Of a stretch of 64,000 nucleotides of DNA, positions 21,468 to 30,504 are shown in pieces. The notes beneath the pieces were generated by a model. That model was not told the DNA's origin, searched no databases, and saw only the letters and a program-made list of their open reading frames with translations. Every line of letters starts with the position of its first letter. Within the stretch, counting starts at the first letter, position 1. Both the position numbers and the translations under genes were made by a program. The DNA is from Salinisphaeraceae bacterium (lineage in GTDB: Bacteria > Pseudomonadota > Gammaproteobacteria > Nevskiales > Salinisphaeraceae): assembly GCA_965216055.1 (NCBI GenBank), contig OZ244134.1, forward strand, positions 520,781 through 584,780. The letters are read 5' to 3'.

Positions 21468-22508
21468 ATGGAAATGCGCCGCCTCGGTCGCACCGATCTC
21501 GACGTCAGCCTGATCTGCCTGGGCACCATGACCTGGGGCGAGCAGAACACCGAGGCCGACGCCCACGAACAGCTTGATTACGCGCTGGAACGGGGCATCA
21601 ACTTCATCGACGCCGCCGAGATGTATCCGGTGCCGCCGAAGGCCGACACCGCCGGGCGCACCGAGCAGTACATCGGCACCTGGCTGGCCCGGCGCGGCAA
21701 ACGCGATGACGTGGTGCTGGCCAGCAAGGTCACCGGCCGCAGCGAGATGAGCTGGCTGCGCGACGGCGACAACCCAGCGCTGAGCCCGGCGCAGGTCCGC
21801 CGCGCGCTGGAAGCCAGCCTCAAGCGCCTACAGACGGATTATCTCGATCTGTATCAGGTGCACTGGCCGGATCGGCGCACCAACACCTTCGGCCGGCTGG
21901 GCTACGTCCACAAGCCGCTGCCCGACGAAGTCGCCATCGAGGACACCCTGGGTGAACTGGGCCGCATGGTGGACGAGGGCAAGATCCGGCACGTGGGCAT
22001 TTCCAACGAAACCCCCTGGGGCCTGATGCGCTACGTGGAGATCGCCGAGCGCACCGGCCTGCCGCGGGTGGTGTCGGTGCAGAATCCCTATTCCCTGCTC
22101 AACCGCACCTTCGAGATCGGCCTGGCGGAATGCGCCGAGCGCGAGGACGTGCGCCTGCTGGCCTATTCGCCGCTGGCCTTCGGCGTGCTTGCCGGCAAGT
22201 ATCTCGACGGCGCGCGCCCGGACGGGGCGCGGCTGACCCTGTTCGAGCGGTTTTCCCGCTATAGCAATCCGGCCGGCGAGGCCGCAACGGCCGAGTACGT
22301 GAAACTGGCGCGTGATCACGGGCTGGATCCCGCCCAGATGGCGCTGGCCTGGTGCAACTCGCGCAGCTTTCTGACCAGCACCATCATCGGCGCCACCAGC
22401 ATGGAGCAGCTTAGGACCGACATCGACAGCGCGGATCTGCAGCTGTCCGACGAGGTCTGCGCGGAAATCGAGACCATTCACACCCGTCACCCCAATCCCT
22501 GCCCCTGA
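21468..22508 (+). CDS. tas: NADP(H)-dependent aldo-keto reductase (Tas-like)
   Basis: ICLGTMTWGEQN, DAAEMYPVPP, DLYQVHWPDR, SNETPWG and AYSPLAFG. Confidence 0.9.
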   Translation: MEMRRLGRTDLDVSLICLGTMTWGEQNTEADAHEQLDYALERGINFIDAAEMYPVPPKADTAGRTEQYIGTWLARRGKRDDVVLASKVTGRSEMSWLRDGDNPALSPAQVRRALEASLKRLQTDYLDLYQVHWPDRRTNTFGRLGYVHKPLPDEVAIEDTLGELGRMVDEGKIRHVGISNETPWGLMRYVEIAERTGLPRVVSVQNPYSLLNRTFEIGLAECAEREDVRLLAYSPLAFGVLAGKYLDGARPDGARLTLFERFSRYSNPAGEAATAEYVKLARDHGLDPAQMALAWCNSRSFLTSTIIGATSMEQLRTDIDSADLQLSDEVCAEIETIHTRHPNPCP

Positions 22509-22639
22509 TCCGGGCACAACTTCCCGGCGGATCAGTCGCTTCCGGCGCCCTCGCCCGGACGGGGTTTGCAAGCGCGGCCGAGCGGCGTATAGGTAGACAT
22601 CGGGCACAGGCAACGTCACTCAAGACGAGGAGGTGCACG

Positions 22640-22939
22640 ATGCCCCGTCGGCTATACGAGATCGAGATCGGCGACTGGTACCACAGCCCGTGGACAAGCG
22701 CCCGCTTCGAGGTAGTGGCCATGGACGAGGCCAGCCGCGCGGTGGAAATCCAGTACGAGGACGGCACGGTCGAGGAAATCGACTACGAGAGCTGGCCACA
22801 GCTGGAAGCCGAGGATGCCGGGCCGCCCGACGACGTGACCGGCGCGCTGGACACCGAGCCCGAGGACGACGACCGGACGGGCCTGAACCTCGACGGGCTG
22901 GACGATCCGTTCGAAGAACTGGACTACCTGCTTCACTGA
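22640..22939 (+). CDS. Small acidic protein, DUF6763-like
   Basis: IGDWY...FEVVAMDE...VEIQYEDGTVEEID pattern; strong RBS GAGGAGG upstream. Confidence 0.7.
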   Translation: MPRRLYEIEIGDWYHSPWTSARFEVVAMDEASRAVEIQYEDGTVEEIDYESWPQLEAEDAGPPDDVTGALDTEPEDDDRTGLNLDGLDDPFEELDYLLH

Positions 22940-22947
22940 GCGATTTC

Positions 22948-24372
22948 TTACGCCCAGGCGTAGTGGGGGATGCCGGTATCGACGTGCCCGGGCTCGTCGC
23001 GATTACCGATACGATCGATGACGAATGCTCCGGACGCGGCCGGCACATCAGCCCGACCGTCATGCAGCGCCTCGTAACCTGCCCGATCAAGATCGACGGC
23101 CCCGTCCAGGGCGGCGCGGAAATTGATGCGTCCGGCCGCTGCCTGCCAACCCGACACCAACGTCAACGGCAACACCTCGGCGGCGTCGCCGCTGCCGTAA
23201 CCAATCGCGAGCCAACGCGGCCCGGGTGCCGCAGTCTGCTCCACCGCTTCTGACAGCCCCGCCGCCAACCAGGCCGGCAGGGAAGCCGTGTAAAGATTGC
23301 CGCAGGCCCGCATCGTGGTCCGACCGGGCCCCAGACGTCCCAGCACGACCTCGCGATAATCCTCGCGCCGGCGCCAGGCTCGTATCAGTGCCATGGTGGC
23401 AGGGTAACGCTCGGCATCCATCGGAATATCAGCATCGGGCCCGCCAATCTCCCGCCCGGGCGCCAGCTCGGCCGCGAGCCCTGGCAGGTCCACACCAGCC
23501 TCGTCGCAGAGCGCACGCAACGCCTGCGGGGCACCCGCCAGCCAGGCCTTCAGGCACAGCATGGCCCAGGCAGTCTCCGGCATGCGGGCGTAGGGTCGAT
23601 GCAGAAACACTGCGTCCCAGTCCGTCGCGCCCGCCGCGTCGGGTCGCGGCGGCATGTCATCAAAGGCCGTCGCAACCGTATCGAGATAGCAGGCGGTGGA
23701 GTAGCGGCCGTTGAATACCGGAAAATCTCGCGGTCGAACCTGGTCCGTAGGCTGGCCCGTAAACCGGGCGAATGGCTTGCGAAAGTCCGCGCCTCGATAC
23801 CGTGAAGCCCGGCCGGCCGCGCCCATGTCCACCGAGACCAGGCGGGGCTCGGCCTCTAGCAACATGGCCACGGCCCCGGCTCCCTGGGTGGCTTCGCCGC
23901 TGCTACCGCGCGCATACTCGGCGATATCGGCGCTGACCACGATTGCCTGTCGGCCCATGCCGTCAGTCGCCAGATAGCGCAACGCCTGCTTCACTCCATA
24001 TATACCGCCCAGACAGGCATGCTTGATCTCGGGCACCTCACAGTCCGTCGCCAGGGGCGCCCGGCCGCGCCGCTCGAGGTAGCCATCGAGCATCCCGCGG
24101 AGTATCACCGCACCTGCAGCATTATCGCTGGCTGACTCGGTGCCCAGCACCAGCATGCCTACGGCGCGCGGATCCACATCATAGGCCTCGATAAGCCGCA
24201 CCGCAGCAGTGGCTGCCAACGCGTAGACATCCTGTTCCGGGCCCGCCATGCGGAAGCTGTCGCCAATCACTCCCGCAATCTTTTCGGCAGACTGGCCGGT
24301 CCAGCGGGACCAGTCAGCAAGATTGACGCGATGTGGCGGGAGATAGACGGAAAATCCGCTGATACCCGGCAT
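22948..24372 (-). CDS. mvaS: Hydroxymethylglutaryl-CoA synthase
   Basis: Catalytic Glu (GTES), Cys (EIKHACLGG) and His (FLHRPY), plus EATQGAGAVA, GNLYTAS and YGSG. Confidence 0.88.
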   Translation of the reverse strand: MPGISGFSVYLPPHRVNLADWSRWTGQSAEKIAGVIGDSFRMAGPEQDVYALAATAAVRLIEAYDVDPRAVGMLVLGTESASDNAAGAVILRGMLDGYLERRGRAPLATDCEVPEIKHACLGGIYGVKQALRYLATDGMGRQAIVVSADIAEYARGSSGEATQGAGAVAMLLEAEPRLVSVDMGAAGRASRYRGADFRKPFARFTGQPTDQVRPRDFPVFNGRYSTACYLDTVATAFDDMPPRPDAAGATDWDAVFLHRPYARMPETAWAMLCLKAWLAGAPQALRALCDEAGVDLPGLAAELAPGREIGGPDADIPMDAERYPATMALIRAWRRREDYREVVLGRLGPGRTTMRACGNLYTASLPAWLAAGLSEAVEQTAAPGPRWLAIGYGSGDAAEVLPLTLVSGWQAAAGRINFRAALDGAVDLDRAGYEALHDGRADVPAASGAFVIDRIGNRDEPGHVDTGIPHYAWA

Positions 24373-24458
24373 GGGCCGGTGCCTTCGCTGAAGTGAATGG
24401 GTACGAAATATTACCAGTTGTGTCCGGAACTGACGTCACCTCGGCTACACTGCGCGGC

Positions 24459-25439
24459 ATGCAAGCTGCCGCCCGCGCCCACGCCAACATCGCGCTGATC
24501 AAGTACTGGGGCAAGCGCAACCATGCGCTCAATCTGCCGGCCACCGGGTCCATCTCGGTGACGCTGGATGCCCTGTATTCGGAAACCCGGGTCCGCTTCG
24601 ACCCGGCCCTGCGCGCCGACGCGATCACACTGGAAAGCGGCGGCGATGCCGAACGGGTCAGTCGTTTCCTCGACCTGGTCCGGGCGCTGGCGGGCATGGA
24701 TGTGCGCGCCGATGTGCGCTCCCGCAACAACTTCCCCACCGGGGCCGGGCTGGCGTCGTCGGCTTCCGGCTTCGCCGCGCTGGCGCTGGCCGCCTGTCGG
24801 GCGGCCGGTATCGAGGCCTCGCCGTCCGAACTGTCGGCGCTGGCACGCCAGGGCTCCGGCTCGGCGGCCCGGTCCCTGTACGGCGGTTTCGTGGAGATGC
24901 AGCGCGGTCGCGACGACCGGAGCGGCGCAGATGCCCACGCCGTGCCGTTGCTGGCCGCGTCCGAGTGGCCGCTGGCGGTGGTGGTGGCAATCATCGACAC
25001 CGGCAGCAAGGCGGTTGGTTCCACCGACGGCATGACGCGGACCGCCGCGACATCGCCCTTCCATGACGCCTGGGTAGCCGGCGCCGGCGCGGACCTGGCC
25101 GCCATGCGGACCGCAATCCGTGACCGGAACCTCGAACGCGTGGGCGAACTCACCGAACACAGCTGTCTGAAGATGCATGCCACCATGCTCGGCGCGCGAC
25201 CGGGGCTGATCTACTGGCAGCCGGCCACCCTGGCGGCTTGGCAGACACTGGCGGACTTGCGCGCCGACGGGCTGCCCGCCTACGGCACCATCGATGCCGG
25301 CCCGCAGGTCAAGGCCCTGTGCCGAATCTCGGACACCGAAACCGTGGCTGCCGCCCTGGGACAGGTACCCGGCGTGCGTGACGTGCGCATCAGCCGCCTC
25401 GGCCCGGACGCCGGCCTGATCTCGGACCCGTGGGCGTAA
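24459..25439 (+). CDS. mvaD: Diphosphomevalonate decarboxylase
   Basis: ANIALIKYWGK, GAGLASSASG, GSGSAARS and TIDAGPQVK. Confidence 0.93.
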   Translation: MQAAARAHANIALIKYWGKRNHALNLPATGSISVTLDALYSETRVRFDPALRADAITLESGGDAERVSRFLDLVRALAGMDVRADVRSRNNFPTGAGLASSASGFAALALAACRAAGIEASPSELSALARQGSGSAARSLYGGFVEMQRGRDDRSGADAHAVPLLAASEWPLAVVVAIIDTGSKAVGSTDGMTRTAATSPFHDAWVAGAGADLAAMRTAIRDRNLERVGELTEHSCLKMHATMLGARPGLIYWQPATLAAWQTLADLRADGLPAYGTIDAGPQVKALCRISDTETVAAALGQVPGVRDVRISRLGPDAGLISDPWA

Positions 25440-26452
25440 CCGCCACCGCCCCGGGCAAGCTGTTCCTGCTGGGCGAATACGCCGTGCTCCACGGCGCGCC
25501 GGCCCTGCTGGCCGCCATGGACGCCCGCTGCCGGGTTTGGCTGGAACCCGCCGATTCCTGGCGGCTGACGGCCCGACCGCTGGGTCTGGCCGATCTGGCG
25601 CTGGCCGATGACGGCGGCCCGCCGAAGAGCGCGACCGAGGATCTTCGGCGTGCGCTGGCGGTGTTCGACGCCGTGCGGCGCACGGTGACGCATGATCACG
25701 AGCTTCCGCCGCTTAGCGTCACCATCGACACCCGCGCCTTCTTCCGCGGTGATCACAAGCTGGGACTGGGCGCCAGCGCCGCCGTTGCGGTGACGCTGAC
25801 CGCCGCCATGCACCGCCTGCTGGGTTATCCCGAGGATCATGCCGCGATTGCCGATGCGGCCACCCGGGCGCACCGCATGGCCCAGGGCGGCGAAGGCAGC
25901 GGCGCCGATGTCGCCACGTCGGTGTACGGCGGCATTGTCGAGTTCGTGGCCGGACAACCGGTACGACCACGGGACTGGCCGCCCGGCCTGCACGCGCGGC
26001 CGGTGATAACCGGCGACGGCGCCGACACCCGCGAACTGGTGGCGGCGGTGCGTCACCTGGCAGTGATCGACCCTGCCGGCCACGACACGGCGATGTCGCG
26101 CCTGGCCGATATCGCCGACCGGGGACGGACGGCGACCGTGCGGTCGGATATCCCCGCGCTGCTCGACGCCTGCCGGGCCGGCCTGGACGCCCTGACCGCC
26201 CTCGGCACGGCCGCCGGGGCCGGGATCGTCACCGTGCGGCATCGGGCGCTGGCCGACGCCATGGCCGGCACCGGCGCGGTGTTCAAGACCACCGGGGCGG
26301 GCGGCGGCGACCTGGGCCTGATCCTGGCGCCCTCGCAGGCCGCGCTCGACGCGGCAACCCGCGCCGCGGAAAGCCTCGGTCATGGCTGTCCGGCACTGGA
26401 ATTCGGGGCAGGCGGGGTGGTTGCCACCGACGTGTCGGGAGCGGTCAGGTAA
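25430..26452 (+). CDS. GHMP kinase, probable phosphomevalonate kinase
   Basis: APGKLFLLGEYAVL, KLGLGASAA, GSGADVA and KTTGAGGGD; operon context. Confidence 0.8.
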   Translation: MGVTATAPGKLFLLGEYAVLHGAPALLAAMDARCRVWLEPADSWRLTARPLGLADLALADDGGPPKSATEDLRRALAVFDAVRRTVTHDHELPPLSVTIDTRAFFRGDHKLGLGASAAVAVTLTAAMHRLLGYPEDHAAIADAATRAHRMAQGGEGSGADVATSVYGGIVEFVAGQPVRPRDWPPGLHARPVITGDGADTRELVAAVRHLAVIDPAGHDTAMSRLADIADRGRTATVRSDIPALLDACRAGLDALTALGTAAGAGIVTVRHRALADAMAGTGAVFKTTGAGGGDLGLILAPSQAALDAATRAAESLGHGCPALEFGAGGVVATDVSGAVR

Positions 26453-26519
26453 AATACCGTTGAGCCGGCCAGCCGGCCGCAACGCCGCCTTCGGTGAAAT
26501 CCAACCACCGCACCCAGCG

Positions 26520-28793
26520 ATGAGCCGTTCCCGCATCCCCGAGTTCTACAAATTCTCCGTGGCCAACCGGCTGCGGGTGCTTTACGAGCGTGAGGTCCTC
26601 AGCGAGGCCGAGTACCACATGCTCATGGACGGCAAGCACCTGCTGGACGCCGCCAAGGCGGACCGGCTGGTGGAGAACGTGATCGGCGCGTTCTCGCTGC
26701 CCATGGGGCTGGGGCTGAATTTCCTGGTCAACGGCAAGGATTACCTGGTGCCGATGGTGGTGGAGGAACCCTCCATCATTGCCGCGGTATCGTCGGCGGC
26801 TAAGGTGATGCGCAGCGCCGGGGGCATCCGCGTGGACGCCGACGAGCCCATGCTGATCGGCCAGATCCAGGTCATGGATGTCGGCCATCCGGCCCGTGCG
26901 CGCCAGGCCCTGCTGGCCCGCAGCGAGGAGATCCTGAATCTGGCCAACAGCCTGCACCCCAAGATGGTCAGCCGCGGCGGCGGGGCCCGCGACGTGGAGA
27001 TTCACCTGCACAGCGCCCAGGGCGCGCGCGGCGACATGCTGGTGGTGCACCTGATCGTGGATACCCGCGACGCCATGGGCGCCAACCTGGTCAACACCAT
27101 GTGCGAGGGCGTAGCCCCGCTGGTGGAGAAGATCACCAACGGCAAGGTGTTCCTGCGCATCCTGTCCAACCTGACCGACCGGGCAATGGTACGGGCGCGG
27201 GTGGAAGTGCCGGTGGCGCAGCTCGGCAACGGTACGTTCTCCGGCGAGCAGGTGCGCGACGGCATCGCGCTGGCCACGGATTTCGCCGCCGCCGACCCTT
27301 ACCGGGCGGCCACCCACAACAAGGGCATCATGAACGGCATCGATGCCGTGGCCATCGCCACCGGCAACGACTGGCGGGCGATCGAGGCCGCCGCCCACGC
27401 CTACGCCGCCCGCGACGGGCACTACACCTCGCTGACCAAGTGGTACGCCAACGAGGCCGGCAATCTGGTGGGCGAGCTGGACCTGCCGCTGAAGGTGGGC
27501 ACGGTGGGCGGTCAGGTGCAGTCCAACCAGGCAGTGATGATCGCCCACCGGCTGCTGGGCGTGGACAGCGCGCGCGAGCTGGCCGGGGTGATGGCCGCGG
27601 TGGGCCTGGCCCAGAACTATGCCGCGCTGAGGGCGCTGTCCACCGACGGCATCCAGCGCGGTCACATGACCCTGCATGCCCGCAGCGTGGCGATCGCCGC
27701 CGGCGCGGAGGAAAGCCAGTTCGACGCGGTGGTGGAAGAGCTGATCGCCTCCGGAGACATCAAGGTCTGGAAGGCGCGGGAAATTCTCGACGGCATGGGC
27801 GAGACCACAACCGCCGGAGATGGCAGTCCGGCCACCGCCGCGTTCACCGCCGACAACGTGGAAGCCGGCGCCGGCTATGCCAAGATCATCCTGCTGGGCG
27901 AGCATTCCGTGGTCTACGGCAAGCACGCCATCGCCGCCCCCATCCCGCTGACCATCCGCGCCGATGTCCAGCGCCAGGAATCCGGCACCACCCTGTTCAT
28001 CCCGCGCTGGGGGGTGGAAACCGAACTGCACCCGCCGACCACCGCGGACAACGCCCTGCACAAGTCGATGGACCTGATCCTGCAGCGGCTGGGGGTGCGC
28101 GACGAACCCATGCGGGTGGAGGTCTATCCCCATGTGCCGCGGGCGGTCGGCCTGGGCGCCTCGGCTGCACTGGCGGTGGCGGTGATCCGCGGCGTAACCG
28201 AAGCCTTCGACATCGACCTGGACGACGCCCGGATCAACGAACTGGCCTACGAGTGCGAACAGATTGCCCATGGCACCCCCAGCGGCATCGACAACACCCT
28301 GGCCACCTACGGCCGGCCGATCCTGTTCCGCAAGGGCGAATTGCCCGGCAGCGCCCCTGCCATCCGCGAGGTGCACCCGGCCCGGCCGATCCCGGTGGTC
28401 ATCGGCCTGTCCGGCGTACGCACCCTGACCGCCCAGACCGTGGGCCGCGTGCGCGCCGCCTGGCAGGCGCACCCGGAACGCTACGAGCCGATCTTCGACC
28501 AGATCGACCAGCTGGCCCTGGCCGGTGTCGACGCGCTGGAACAGGGCGATATCGCCACGCTCGGCGAACTGATGAATATCGACCAGGGGCTGCTCAACGC
28601 CCTGCAGGTTTCCTGCTGGGAGGTGGAGGAACTGGTGCAGATCGCCCGCGAGAACGGCGCCCTGGGGGCCAAGCTCACCGGCGGCGGCGGCGGCGGCGCG
28701 GTGATTGCCGTGGCCGAGGCCGACCGCACCGAGGGCATCGCCATCGCCATGCGGCGGGCCGGCTATGACACCTTCATCACCGAGATCCGGTAG
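26520..28793 (+). CDS. Fusion of class II HMG-CoA reductase (N-terminal) and mevalonate kinase (C-terminal)
   Basis: HMGR motifs ENVIG, DAMGAN, THNKGIMNG, QRGHMTLH, then in the same frame MVK motifs KIILLGEHSVVYG, PRAVGLGASAA, HGTPSGID, KLTGGGGGG. Confidence 0.9.
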   Translation: MSRSRIPEFYKFSVANRLRVLYEREVLSEAEYHMLMDGKHLLDAAKADRLVENVIGAFSLPMGLGLNFLVNGKDYLVPMVVEEPSIIAAVSSAAKVMRSAGGIRVDADEPMLIGQIQVMDVGHPARARQALLARSEEILNLANSLHPKMVSRGGGARDVEIHLHSAQGARGDMLVVHLIVDTRDAMGANLVNTMCEGVAPLVEKITNGKVFLRILSNLTDRAMVRARVEVPVAQLGNGTFSGEQVRDGIALATDFAAADPYRAATHNKGIMNGIDAVAIATGNDWRAIEAAAHAYAARDGHYTSLTKWYANEAGNLVGELDLPLKVGTVGGQVQSNQAVMIAHRLLGVDSARELAGVMAAVGLAQNYAALRALSTDGIQRGHMTLHARSVAIAAGAEESQFDAVVEELIASGDIKVWKAREILDGMGETTTAGDGSPATAAFTADNVEAGAGYAKIILLGEHSVVYGKHAIAAPIPLTIRADVQRQESGTTLFIPRWGVETELHPPTTADNALHKSMDLILQRLGVRDEPMRVEVYPHVPRAVGLGASAALAVAVIRGVTEAFDIDLDDARINELAYECEQIAHGTPSGIDNTLATYGRPILFRKGELPGSAPAIREVHPARPIPVVIGLSGVRTLTAQTVGRVRAAWQAHPERYEPIFDQIDQLALAGVDALEQGDIATLGELMNIDQGLLNALQVSCWEVEELVQIARENGALGAKLTGGGGGGAVIAVAEADRTEGIAIAMRRAGYDTFITEIR

Positions 28794-28810
28794 CGGGCCT
28801 TGGCTTTCTT

Positions 28811-28965
28811 TAACCGCAAAGGGCGCAAAGGCAACGCAGTGTTTATTGTGCGTCGCAGCTGGGCAAGGGACACGACGATGCGTTTCGTGCTGCCGGCGTC
28901 CCCGGCCGAGATAATGCCGACCAGAACGAACACCTCTTCGCGGAACTTTGCGCCCTTTGCGGTTA
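28811..28965. repeat. 155-bp palindromic extragenic element with perfect 20-bp terminal inverted repeats
   Basis: TAACCGCAAAGGGCGCAAAG (28811-28830) and its exact reverse complement (28946-28965). Confidence 0.75.
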
Positions 28966-28986
28966 GCGCTTCGGTGAGCTGAGCCC

Positions 28987-29571
28987 ATGCAGACCACCAC
29001 GCCAGCCAACCACGCGGTTGTCTCCTTCGACGACGAGCCGCTGATCCGGGTCGACAGCCAGGACAATCTGCTCGGCTTCGAGTCCAAGGAGGCCTGCCAC
29101 GACGGCGACGGCCTGCTGCACCGGGCCTTCTCCATCTTCCTGTTCGACCGGTCGGGCCGGCTTCTGCTGCAGCAGCGCAGCGACCAGAAGCGCCTGTGGC
29201 CGGGCTACTGGGCCAACAGCTGCTGCAGCCACCCGCGCCGGGGCGAATCCGACGGCGAGGCCGCGGCGCGTCGCATCCGCGAGGAACTGGACGTGAGCCC
29301 GCCGCTGACGTTTCTCTACCGGTTCGAGTACCACGCCCGCTATGGCGAGCTGGGCTCGGAACACGAGCTGTGCTCGGTCTACGCCGCGGTGGACGACAAC
29401 CCGGTGCGGATCAATGTCAACGAGATCGCCGACATCCGGTGGATCGAACCGGATGTGCTGGACCTCGAACTGGCGAAGCATCCCGAGCGCTACGCGCCCT
29501 GGCTGAAGCTGGAGTGGCCGCGACTCCGGGAGCAACACTGGGACCGCGTCCTGACTGGACAGGCGCCATGA
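28987..29571 (+). CDS. idi: Isopentenyl-diphosphate delta-isomerase, type I (Nudix fold)
   Basis: LLHRAFSIFLF, WANSCCSHP and EHELC. Confidence 0.93.
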   Translation: MQTTTPANHAVVSFDDEPLIRVDSQDNLLGFESKEACHDGDGLLHRAFSIFLFDRSGRLLLQQRSDQKRLWPGYWANSCCSHPRRGESDGEAAARRIREELDVSPPLTFLYRFEYHARYGELGSEHELCSVYAAVDDNPVRINVNEIADIRWIEPDVLDLELAKHPERYAPWLKLEWPRLREQHWDRVLTGQAP

Positions 29572-29629
29572 ATGGCGCGCTACGCAAGATCAGTCAACCT
29601 ATGCGTCGTAGGGCCGCATTCATGCGGCC
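29562..29629. repeat. Pair of inverted GTAG-type REP sequences
   Basis: The reverse complement of 29562-29583 is GTAGCGCGCCATTCATGGCGCC; 29608-29629 is GTAGGGCCGCATTCATGCGGCC. Confidence 0.75.
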
Positions 29630-29721
29630 GGGTGGTGTGAACTGCGGGATCCGGAAAAGCCGGGAATTGATCGCGTCCGGCTTGCAGTCAGCAGGTAGGG
29701 CCGGCGCCGCGAATGATTCGT

Positions 29722-30504
29722 TCAGCCCGGCAGCCCGAGAATCCGCCTGGCAGTTTCACCAACCCGCCCGTTGCTCGCGAACACGCTGGTGGTCTCCAGC
29801 CCGATCGGGCCACCGTCGAGCTGGCTGATGTCACCGCCGGCTTCGCGCAGGATCACGGTCAGGGCGCCGATGTCGAGGATATTGAGGTCGGACTCGACAA
29901 TCAGGTCGATGCGACCGGCCGCCAGCAGATGGTAATGATAGAAGTCGCCGTAGCCCCGGTGCCGGTGGACGGCTCGCAGCAGCTCCCCCACGTTGGACCA
30001 GCGATCGGAACCGGCCAGTGTGCCGATGTTGCCCAGTGACAGGGTGGCCCGGTCCAGCCGGTCGATCTCGCTGACATTGATCGGCTCGCCATTGAGCGTG
30101 GCGCCCTCGCCGCGGGCGGCGGCTGCCATTTCGCCGCCGTTGAACATCGGCGCGTTGGACACCCCGACCACCAGTTCGCCGCGATGCATCAGCGCGATCT
30201 GGGTGGAAAAGAAGGGATAGCCGCGCACAAAACTCTTGGTGCCGTCGATGGGGTCGATCAGCCAGACGTATTCCGCATCGGCGGATTCGCGGCCCAGCTC
30301 CTCGCCGTAGAAACCATGGTCCGGGAAGGCCTCGGCCAGCACCGCCTTGATCGCCCGCTCGCTTTCCACGTCCGCCACGGTGACCGGGCTGTCGTCGGCC
30401 TTGTCCGACACCTCGAACTCGCCGTGATAGTAGTGGCGGATAACGTCCTCGGCGGCGCGCGCCGCGTCGACGGCCCGGGCCAGAAACTGCTGTGTCGAGG
30501 CCAA
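29722..30504 (-). CDS. Inositol monophosphatase / histidinol-phosphatase family protein
   Basis: DSPVTVAD, GEE, WLIDPIDGTKSF and LDIGA. Start taken at TTG 30504 behind RBS GGGAGG. Confidence 0.88.
   Translation of the reverse strand: MASTQQFLARAVDAARAAEDVIRHYYHGEFEVSDKADDSPVTVADVESERAIKAVLAEAFPDHGFYGEELGRESADAEYVWLIDPIDGTKSFVRGYPFFSTQIALMHRGELVVGVSNAPMFNGGEMAAAARGEGATLNGEPINVSEIDRLDRATLSLGNIGTLAGSDRWSNVGELLRAVHRHRGYGDFYHYHLLAAGRIDLIVESDLNILDIGALTVILREAGGDISQLDGGPIGLETTSVFASNGRVGETARRILGLPG

What the first reader, a model, noticed from the sequence alone, without database searches (positions are those of the whole stretch)
26520..28793. HMG-CoA reductase-mevalonate kinase fusion
Seen: one uninterrupted 757-aa ORF joins a class II HMGR to a full GHMP mevalonate kinase through a short linker (GMGETTTAGDGSPATAAFTADNVE). 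Known: the classic bacterial fusion is thiolase-HMGR (Enterococcus MvaE), while HMGR and MVK are usually separate. Inference: fusing consecutive steps could channel mevalonate and pull a normally reversible class II enzyme toward biosynthesis. Potentially useful for isoprenoid engineering.
Basis: partly seen in the sequence, partly recalled or inferred. Interest (0 to 1): 0.55.

Follow-up and report, generated by a model that had tools for sequence, protein, structure and literature searches.

The report
Natural HMG-CoA reductase–mevalonate kinase fusion
One gene in this marine Salinisphaeraceae bacterium encodes two consecutive mevalonate-pathway enzymes as a single protein, and it is the cell's only copy of either; the fusion is genuine, but it is common in many bacteria, labelled in databases by its first half only, and apparently unstudied.

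Summary
Window 26520-28793 (+) is one open 757-codon gene made of three parts:
- a complete class II HMG-CoA reductase (HMGR), residues 1 to about 427;
- a poorly conserved, disordered linker, about 428-449;
- a complete mevalonate kinase (MVK), about 450-757.

All catalytic residues of both halves are invariant in 121 fused homologues.

The gene lies in a conserved cassette: MVD, a PMK-like kinase, HMGR-MVK, then IDI1, with HMG-CoA synthase divergent. The genome is one 3.11-Mb contig, 99.9% complete. It has no other HMGR or MVK and no Dxr, IspG or IspH, so the fusion must work biosynthetically.

The cofactor helix (HPKMVSR) is of the NADPH type, like S. pneumoniae (YPSIVKR). It is not of the NADH type of P. 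mevalonii (DQLLNSL). The database name "degradative" is therefore misleading.

The fusion is neither an artefact nor rare:
- all 28 Salinisphaeraceae genomes searched carry it;
- 65 of the 80 best species-level loci carry it, from Gammaproteobacteria, Calditrichota, Acidobacteriota, Actinomycetota and others.

Close relatives have the same two genes adjacent and overlapping by a few bases, which shows how the fusion arises.

Channelling of mevalonate is untested. I found no paper on this fusion. This scan has already noted it about 74 times in at least 71 other genomes. Modest interest.

The parts
26520..28793 (+). HMGR-MVK fusion gene, 757 codons plus stop
   Evidence: open frame; both domains above curated cut-offs; homologues of 750-770 aa with the same three Pfam domains.
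26520..27800 (+). Class II HMG-CoA reductase domain, residues 1 to about 427, including the C-terminal three-helix flap that carries the catalytic His382
   Evidence: E 1e-126 to D. acidovorans HMGR (6dio) and 7.5e-125 to P. mevalonii HMGR (1qax), aligned end to end. E83, K268, N272, D284 and H382 invariant in 121 of 121 homologues.
26955..26975 (+). Cofactor helix motif, residues 146-152 (HPKMVSR), NADPH type
   Evidence: aligned with YPSIVKR of S. pneumoniae (5wpj) against DQLLNSL, DKVLIGL and DKVLVGL of the three NADH enzymes 1qax, 6dio and 6p7k. The motif rule comes from PMC13488460. H146 in 120 of 121, M149 and R152 in 121 of 121.
27801..27866 (+). Inter-domain linker, residues about 428-449
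   Evidence: column conservation collapses here, and the anchored segment varies from 23 to 61 residues among homologues; pLDDT below 50 for residues 428-447.
27867..28790 (+). Mevalonate kinase domain (GHMP superfamily), residues about 450-757
   Evidence: TIGR00549 at 243 bits against a cut-off of 163; best PDB matches are all mevalonate kinases (L. major 2hfs at 5.5e-40; 8teb, 6mde, 4hac at about 1e-37). K455, E461, H462, S548, E580, D591, K718 and T720 invariant in 121 of 121; T593 in 120 of 121.
25430..26452 (+). Upstream GHMP kinase, probable phosphomevalonate kinase (assigned by elimination); overlaps the MVD gene by 10 nt
   Evidence: GHMP_kinases_N; below the cut-offs of both the MVK and PMK models; best PDB match is Listeria Lin0012 (3k17).
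24393..25439 (+). Diphosphomevalonate decarboxylase (MVD)
   Evidence: TIGR01240 at 275 bits against a cut-off of 171. MVD-like_N and MDD_C.
28987..29571 (+). Type 1 isopentenyl-diphosphate isomerase (Nudix fold)
   Evidence: NF002995 at 158 bits (cut-off 127) and TIGR02150 at 148 bits (cut-off 106).
22948..24372 (-). Divergently transcribed HMG-CoA synthase (divergent, 474 aa)
   Evidence: HMG_CoA_synt_N and HMG_CoA_synt_C; below the NCBIfam equivalog cut-offs.

Best explanation
This is a genuine bifunctional biosynthetic enzyme. The N-terminal class II HMG-CoA reductase reduces HMG-CoA to mevalonate, most likely with NADPH. The C-terminal mevalonate kinase phosphorylates that mevalonate to mevalonate 5-phosphate. 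A disordered linker of about 20 residues hangs the kinase from the end of the reductase's mobile C-terminal flap. The protein is the organism's only HMGR and only MVK, and the organism has no MEP pathway, so both halves are needed to make IPP. The gene belongs to a conserved cassette (MVD, PMK, HMGR-MVK, IDI1). It arose by read-through of an adjacent, overlapping hmgr/mvk gene pair. Shown: the architecture, intact catalytic residues, sole-copy status, absence of the MEP pathway, the NADPH-type motif and wide conservation. Inferred: both activities, the cofactor preference, and the idea that the main benefit of fusion is fixed 1:1 co-expression and co-localisation rather than true substrate channelling.
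For: - Domains are above curated cut-offs and align end to end with solved HMGRs and MVKs.
- Catalytic residues of both halves are invariant in 121 fused homologues of 60-98% identity, while the linker is not conserved in length or sequence.
- The AlphaFold2 model has mean pLDDT 81 and pTM 0.52; both domains are confident and the linker 428-447 is below 50.
- Own genome (one contig, 99.92% complete): one HMGR and one MVK above cut-off, both in this gene. Dxr, IspH and IspG are not found, while the controls ring in 9 of 14 reference genomes. Nine thiolases are found elsewhere.
- IspH is absent and the fusion present in all 28 genomes of the family.
- The cofactor helix HPKMVSR aligns with the NADPH enzyme of S. 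pneumoniae and not with the three NADH enzymes (motif rule in PMC13488460).
- The cassette order MVD-PMK-HMGR-MVK-IDI1 recurs in about 40 loci.
- Split relatives have hmgr and mvk adjacent and overlapping: L089 by 4 nt in the same cassette, and Oceanobacillus, Virgibacillus, Myxococcus and Corallococcus.
Against: - No activity of either half has been measured for any member of this fused family, as far as the held literature shows.
- The cofactor motif has K at position 3 where the published NADPH motif has S. Among homologues that position is N, K or Q, so dual or atypical specificity is possible.
- The PMK assignment of the neighbouring kinase is by elimination only.
- Post-translational cleavage at the linker cannot be excluded from sequence.
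Confidence: 0.85

Rival explanations
1. The fusion exists to channel mevalonate. Tethering MVK to the HMGR flap, or building higher-order assemblies from two homo-oligomeric domains, hands mevalonate directly to the kinase and raises flux.
For: The two domains catalyse consecutive steps. The tether is short and starts right after the flap helix that carries catalytic His382. The architecture has been kept across a whole family and several phyla. Further fusion to IDI1 (P0124, P0125) and reverse-order MVK-HMGR fusions also occur. From general knowledge, both parent enzymes are homo-oligomers.
Against: The model predicts no inter-domain interface (pTM 0.52, disordered linker). Linker length and sequence are free to vary. 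Close relatives do well with split, merely overlapping genes. From general knowledge, proximity alone rarely channels a small diffusible metabolite. There are no kinetic data.
Confidence: 0.25
2. The HMGR half is a degradative (mevalonate-oxidising, NAD-dependent) enzyme, as its database name says.
For: The best NCBIfam model is TIGR00532, 'HMG-CoA reductase, degradative'. The closest solved structures are the NADH enzymes of D. acidovorans and P. mevalonii.
Against: The cofactor helix lacks the Asp and Leu of the NADH motif and carries the His and Arg of the NADPH motif. The domain is fused to a biosynthetic kinase and sits among MVD, PMK, IDI and HMGS genes. The genome has no MEP pathway and no other HMGR.
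Confidence: 0.03
3. One domain is a catalytically dead remnant or a regulatory module.
For: None specific. It is a generic possibility for fused enzymes.
Against: All catalytic and motif residues of both domains are invariant in 121 homologues. No other HMGR or MVK is present in a 99.9% complete genome that depends on the mevalonate pathway.
Confidence: 0.03
4. The single ORF is a sequencing or assembly artefact that merges two adjacent genes.
For: Related bacteria do have adjacent, overlapping hmgr and mvk genes that a single indel would merge.
Against: The same uninterrupted ORF is found in 27 other genomes of the family (frameshifted in one further low-quality genome), in 65 further species-level loci, and in more than 120 protein clusters from independent projects. 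The assembly is a closed single contig.
Confidence: 0.01

Closest known systems
MvaE of Enterococcus faecalis (acetoacetyl-CoA thiolase fused to class II HMGR; PDB 7m1z and 7m3h for the HMGR part)
   Same: It is a natural bifunctional mevalonate-pathway protein that contains a class II, NADPH-type HMGR. The HMGR halves are homologous (E 9e-89).
   Different: In MvaE the partner is a thiolase and sits at the N-terminus, and the two steps are not consecutive (HMG-CoA synthase acts between them). Here the partner is mevalonate kinase at the C-terminus and the steps are consecutive. No thiolase domain is present.
Stand-alone class II HMGRs with solved structures: P. mevalonii (1qax), D. acidovorans (6dio), B. 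cenocepacia (6p7k), S. pneumoniae (5wpj)
   Same: They align over the full length including the flap domain, with identical catalytic Glu, Lys, Asp and His. The cofactor helix resembles that of S. pneumoniae.
   Different: Overall the domain is closest in sequence to the NADH enzymes, yet it carries the NADPH-type cofactor helix. It continues past the flap into a linker and a second enzyme.
Stand-alone mevalonate kinases (Leishmania major 2hfs; 8teb, 6mde, 4hac; S. aureus 2x7i)
   Same: The domain is a full-length GHMP kinase with motifs I-III and the catalytic Lys and Asp conserved.
   Different: It has no free N-terminus and is tethered to HMGR. Motif II reads GLGASAA, as in L. major, rather than GLGSSAA.
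Uncharacterised HMGR-MVK fusion proteins in public databases (Salinisphaera spp., Nevskia, Rhodanobacteraceae, Woeseiaceae, Cryobacterium, Nakamurella, Calditrichaceae), named only 'hydroxymethylglutaryl-CoA reductase, degradative'
   Same: Same architecture, same cassette, 45-98% identity. The window's gene is a plain member of this family.
   Different: Nothing structural. This copy is from a closed genome in which the absence of the MEP pathway could be shown.

Membership tests
Class II HMG-CoA reductase (PF00368; TIGR00532) | Profile score above the curated cut-off over the full length | tested here: met
   PF00368 at 361 bits (cut-off 27) and TIGR00532 at 426 bits (cut-off 260).
Class II HMG-CoA reductase (PF00368; TIGR00532) | Catalytic Glu83, Lys267, Asp283 and His381 (P. 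mevalonii numbering) and the ENVIG, DAMGAN and GTVGG motifs | tested here: met
   E83, K268, D284 and H382 align with 1qax and are invariant in 121 of 121 homologues. The three motifs are visible in the translation.
Class II HMG-CoA reductase (PF00368; TIGR00532) | C-terminal three-helix flap domain carrying the catalytic His | tested here: met
   The alignment to 6dio and 1qax runs to residues 422-425. The model has helices 380-393, 398-411 and 416-428.
'Degradative' NADH-dependent HMGR (P. mevalonii MvaA type) | Cofactor helix motif Dx(V/L)xxxL | tested here: not met
   The window has HPKMVSR. 1qax, 6dio and 6p7k have DQLLNSL, DKVLIGL and DKVLVGL. The motif rule is from PMC13488460.
NADPH-type class II HMGR | Cofactor helix motif (H/Y)xSxxxR | tested here: inconclusive
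   H at position 1, M at position 4 and R at position 7 match, and the helix aligns with YPSIVKR of 5wpj. Position 3 is K, not S. Kinetics are needed.
Mevalonate kinase (TIGR00549; GHMP superfamily) | Equivalog score above the cut-off, and best structural relatives are mevalonate kinases rather than PMK or galactokinase | tested here: met
   243 bits against a cut-off of 163. The eleven best PDB matches are all mevalonate kinases.
Mevalonate kinase (TIGR00549; GHMP superfamily) | GHMP motifs I-III with the catalytic Lys (motif I) and Asp (SGxDN) | tested here: met
   K455, GEH at 460-462, GLGASAA at 544-550, D591 and KLTGGGGGG at 718-726. All key residues are invariant.
MvaE-type thiolase-HMGR fusion | N-terminal acetoacetyl-CoA thiolase domain | tested here: not met
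   No thiolase domain is in the protein. Thiolases are encoded elsewhere in the genome.
HMGR-MVK fusion family (database architecture PF00368 + PF00288 + PF08544) | Both domains in one uninterrupted ORF in the order HMGR then MVK, within the cassette MVD-PMK-HMGR/MVK-IDI1 | tested here: met
   for the ORF. for the neighbours. for the same arrangement in 65 other loci.
HMGR-MVK fusion family (database architecture PF00368 + PF00288 + PF08544) | Both enzyme activities present in one polypeptide | not testable with these tools
   This needs expression and assay. No published assay was found in the held literature.

The most novel reading that the evidence does not exclude
Both fused domains are homo-oligomeric enzymes. 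The fusion could therefore assemble into higher-order clusters that really do channel mevalonate. In that reading, the MVD-PMK-HMGR/MVK-IDI1 cassette is a horizontally mobile, self-sufficient isoprenoid module whose efficiency let it displace the MEP pathway in whole lineages such as the Salinisphaeraceae, and spread among Gammaproteobacteria, Actinomycetota, Calditrichota and Acidobacteriota.
Probability: 0.15. Interest if true: 0.55.

Novelty: new variant of a known kind. Interest (0 to 1): 0.3.

Why it matters
Natural fusions of consecutive pathway enzymes are ready-made parts for isoprenoid engineering and natural test cases for substrate channelling. This one joins the flux-controlling reductase to the next enzyme. 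It comes in hundreds of variants with different linkers, and it has close split relatives (4-nt overlapping genes in the same cassette) that give a clean comparison. It also exposes an annotation error: hundreds of proteins named 'degradative HMG-CoA reductase' are two-enzyme biosynthetic proteins with an NADPH-type cofactor helix, so automated pathway reconstructions can miss the mevalonate kinase step. In this family the fusion is the only route to isoprenoid precursors. Interest is limited, because both enzymes are well understood, the architecture is common in databases, and no new chemistry is implied.

Tried and rejected
- **Assembly or frameshift artefact:** rejected (closed genome, 28 of 28 family genomes, 65 other loci).
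- **The longer 803-aa start at 26382:** rejected, because the extension has no counterpart in homologues.
- **Real genes on the antisense or alternative frames:** no Pfam match.
- **Taking tblastn full-length matches at face value:** this would have listed Myxococcus, Corallococcus, Archangium, Oceanobacillus, Virgibacillus and Paucisalibacillus as carrying the fusion. An ORF-level check showed two adjacent genes there, so they were removed from the count.
- **Swapped kinase roles (fused GHMP domain as PMK, neighbour as MVK):** rejected on equivalog scores and PDB matches.
- **Promoter and terminator scan of 22500-30000:** gave nothing above the shuffled expectation.
- **Literature searches for a described HMGR-MVK fusion:** found none, including a 2026 review of bacterial isoprenoid pathways, Hoshino and Gaucher 2018, and a 2026 HMGR diversity paper. 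Lombard and Moreira 2011 and Miller and Kung 2018 were not held, so the negative is limited to the held library.
- **Placing P. mevalonii HMGR on the tree:** not possible, because PDB sequences cannot be fetched as ids.
- **Fold search of the model:** judged redundant, given E values of 1e-126 and 1e-40 to solved structures.
Full report
**Observation**

The + strand frame ending at 28793 is open from 26382. The ATG at 26520 gives a 757-residue protein whose N-terminus matches those of homologues and of P. mevalonii HMGR. Pfam finds HMG-CoA_red (14-387, E 8e-108), GHMP_kinases_N (515-597) and GHMP_kinases_C (671-748). NCBIfam finds the class II HMGR equivalog TIGR00532 (426 bits, cut-off 260) and the mevalonate kinase equivalog TIGR00549 (243 bits, cut-off 163). 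The antisense 896-aa ORF and an alternative-frame 555-aa ORF have no family match and are what a 68-70% GC sequence produces by chance.

**Anatomy**

The HMGR half aligns end to end, including the C-terminal flap, with solved class II HMGRs: D. acidovorans 6dio at E 1e-126 and P. mevalonii 1qax at 7.5e-125. The MVK half matches only mevalonate kinases at the top of the PDB list: L. major 2hfs at 5.5e-40, and 8teb, 6mde and 4hac at about 1e-37.

I aligned 121 fused homologues of 60-98% identity.
- The HMGR catalytic residues E83, K268, N272, D284 and H382 are invariant.
- The MVK residues K455, E461, H462, S548, E580, D591, K718 and T720 are invariant; T593 is kept in 120 of 121.
- Conservation collapses between residues about 426 and 450. 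The anchored linker segment varies from 23 to 61 residues with no conserved sequence.

An AlphaFold2 model built on 63 homologues has mean pLDDT 81 and pTM only 0.52. Both enzymes are confident, and residues 428-447 are below pLDDT 50. The picture is two rigid domains on a disordered tether with no predicted interface.

**Context and necessity**

The gene sits in a mevalonate cluster:

| Coordinates | Strand | Gene |
|---|---|---|
| 22948-24372 | - | HMG-CoA synthase |
| 24393-25439 | + | MVD |
| 25430-26452 | + | GHMP kinase, probably PMK |
| 26520-28793 | + | HMGR-MVK fusion |
| 28987-29571 | + | type 1 IPP isomerase |

The window's genome is a single 3.11-Mb contig, 99.92% complete.
- It has one HMGR and one above-cut-off MVK, both in this gene.
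- It has no Dxr, IspH or IspG, while the same searches ring in 9 of 14 control genomes.
- It has nine thiolases elsewhere.

The mevalonate pathway is therefore the only route to IPP, and this protein supplies two of its steps. That is strong indirect evidence that both halves are active and that the reductase works in the biosynthetic direction. Across the family (Salinisphaeraceae by the names), 28 of 28 genomes in 7 genera have the fused gene (one low-quality genome has it frameshifted) and 0 of 28 have IspH.

**Cofactor**

A 2026 paper (PMC13488460), citing Miller and Kung 2018, gives the class II cofactor-helix rule: Dx(V/L)xxxL in NADH enzymes and (H/Y)xSxxxR in NADPH enzymes. The table shows the direct alignment.

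| Enzyme | Cofactor type | Helix motif |
|---|---|---|
| Window protein | predicted NADPH | HPKMVSR |
| S. pneumoniae (5wpj) | NADPH | YPSIVKR |
| P. mevalonii (1qax) | NADH | DQLLNSL |
| D. acidovorans (6dio) | NADH | DKVLIGL |
| B. cenocepacia (6p7k) | NADH | DKVLVGL |

H146 (120 of 121), M149 and R152 (both 121 of 121) are conserved in the fused homologues, and position 3 is N, K or Q. The enzyme is thus predicted to prefer NADPH, or at least to accept it, although overall it is closest in sequence to NADH enzymes. The database label 'degradative' comes from the name of the profile, not from the biology.

**Distribution and origin**

- The 120 best clusters at 90% identity all carry the three Pfam domains. 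They come from Salinisphaera species, Nevskia, Sinobacteraceae, Wenzhouxiangellaceae, Calditrichaeota, Parafrigoribacterium and others, and are named only as HMG-CoA reductase.
- In an even sample of 400 gammaproteobacterial genomes, 43 have a class II HMGR. Eleven of these are full-length fusions, including a distant lineage at 35-36% identity.
- Of the 150 nearest 50%-identity representatives, 23 are HMGR-MVK and 3 are the reverse order, MVK-HMGR. Others are HMGR fused to polyprenyl synthase, terpene synthase, a squalene-hopene-cyclase-like domain, squalene/phytoene synthase, or type 2 IDI. Two are HMGR-MVK-Nudix triple fusions.
- A scan of species-representative genomes returned at least 596 related stretches. 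I checked the best 80 at ORF level. Sixty-five are true single-ORF fusions: Salinisphaera, Rhodanobacteraceae, Dokdonella, Nevskia, Woeseiaceae, Pseudomonadales MAGs, Calditrichaceae, Acidobacteria, Balneolaceae, Nakamurella, Cryobacterium.
- The Myxococcaceae and Bacillaceae hits are adjacent, often overlapping, separate hmgr and mvk genes.
- The order MVD-PMK-HMGR/MVK-IDI1 recurs in about 40 loci.
- One close relative (L089) has exactly this cassette with hmgr and mvk split and overlapping by 4 nt. A small indel at such a junction is enough to create or undo the fusion.
- On a FastTree of HMGR domains, the window's protein lies in a well-supported group of 18 representatives, 15 of them fused. 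At least five changes of state are forced overall. This suggests one main origin plus a few independent events or fissions, but the tree is quick and unrooted.
- Actinobacterial Cryobacterium copies (62-65% identity) are closer to the window's protein than gammaproteobacterial Woeseiaceae copies (45-50%). That points to transfer of the cassette between phyla.

**Mechanism**

- Shown: the architecture, intact active sites, sole-copy status and a flexible tether.
- Inferred: sequential catalysis of HMG-CoA to mevalonate to mevalonate 5-phosphate on one polypeptide, with NADPH.
- Why fused: I consider it most likely that the fusion simply hard-wires the 1:1 co-expression and co-localisation that the overlapping gene pair already approximates. 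Kinetic channelling is possible but unsupported. No interface is predicted, the linker is unconstrained, and split relatives persist.

**Comparison with the known**

The closest described system is MvaE of Enterococcus, a thiolase fused to class II HMGR. The window's protein differs in partner, in domain order, and in joining consecutive steps. I found no paper describing an HMGR-MVK fusion in the held library, and two key papers were not held. The architecture is, however, plainly visible in public protein databases. This scan has already reported it about 74 times in at least 71 other genomes, with the same conclusions.

**Verdict**

The fusion is real, functional by strong inference, under-annotated, widespread and biochemically unstudied. 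It is a new variant of a known kind, of modest interest.

Noticed in passing
Proteins P0154, P0158, P0139, P0146, P0168, P0185: Class II HMGR is a fusion hub. Representatives exist with HMGR fused to polyprenyl synthase, a terpene synthase, a squalene-hopene-cyclase-like domain, squalene/phytoene synthase plus an epimerase, polyprenyl synthase plus SQS, and (at the N-terminus) an FMN-dependent type 2 IDI-like domain.
   Followed up: partly
Proteins P0124 (952 aa) and P0125 (928 aa); probably loci L027, L037 and L074: These are triple fusions HMGR-MVK-Nudix (IDI1), that is, read-through into the next gene of the same cassette.
   Followed up: partly
Proteins P0177 (704 aa) and P0183 (731 aa): These are reverse-order MVK-HMGR fusions with an NADH-type (Asp-first) cofactor helix, so the same two enzymes were joined independently.
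   Followed up: partly
Proteins P0214 (757 aa), P0251 (749 aa) and their clade: This is a clade of class II HMGRs with a cofactor helix of the form CxxMxxR and a C-terminal extension of about 350 residues. The extension has no Pfam match and no similarity to MVK. The partner domain is unknown.
   Followed up: partly
L089:1-9299 (NCBI assembly GCA_000381645.1): The same cassette occurs with hmgr and mvk split (4-nt overlap). It is embedded among hopanoid-type genes: SQS_PSY, PNP_UDP_1, an epimerase, and a radical SAM protein with DUF3463.
   Followed up: no
Whole family: genomes G000-G027: IspH was not found in any of the 28 Salinisphaeraceae genomes, 24 of them high quality. The whole family appears to rely on the mevalonate pathway, which is unusual for Gammaproteobacteria.
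   Followed up: partly
window 22948-24372 (-) and 25430-26452 (+): The HMG-CoA synthase (474 aa) and the presumed phosphomevalonate kinase both score well below all NCBIfam equivalog cut-offs. They are divergent versions whose assignments rest on context.
   Followed up: partly
G207 and G367: A distant gammaproteobacterial lineage has 719-721-aa open frames that match residues 6-731 at only 35-36% identity. This may be a separate, older or independent HMGR-MVK fusion.
   Followed up: no
G027:C12:184867-187164: The family's one low-quality genome (86% complete, 7% contamination) has the fused gene broken into four pieces with a TGA inside. This may be sequencing error or a pseudogene.
   Followed up: no
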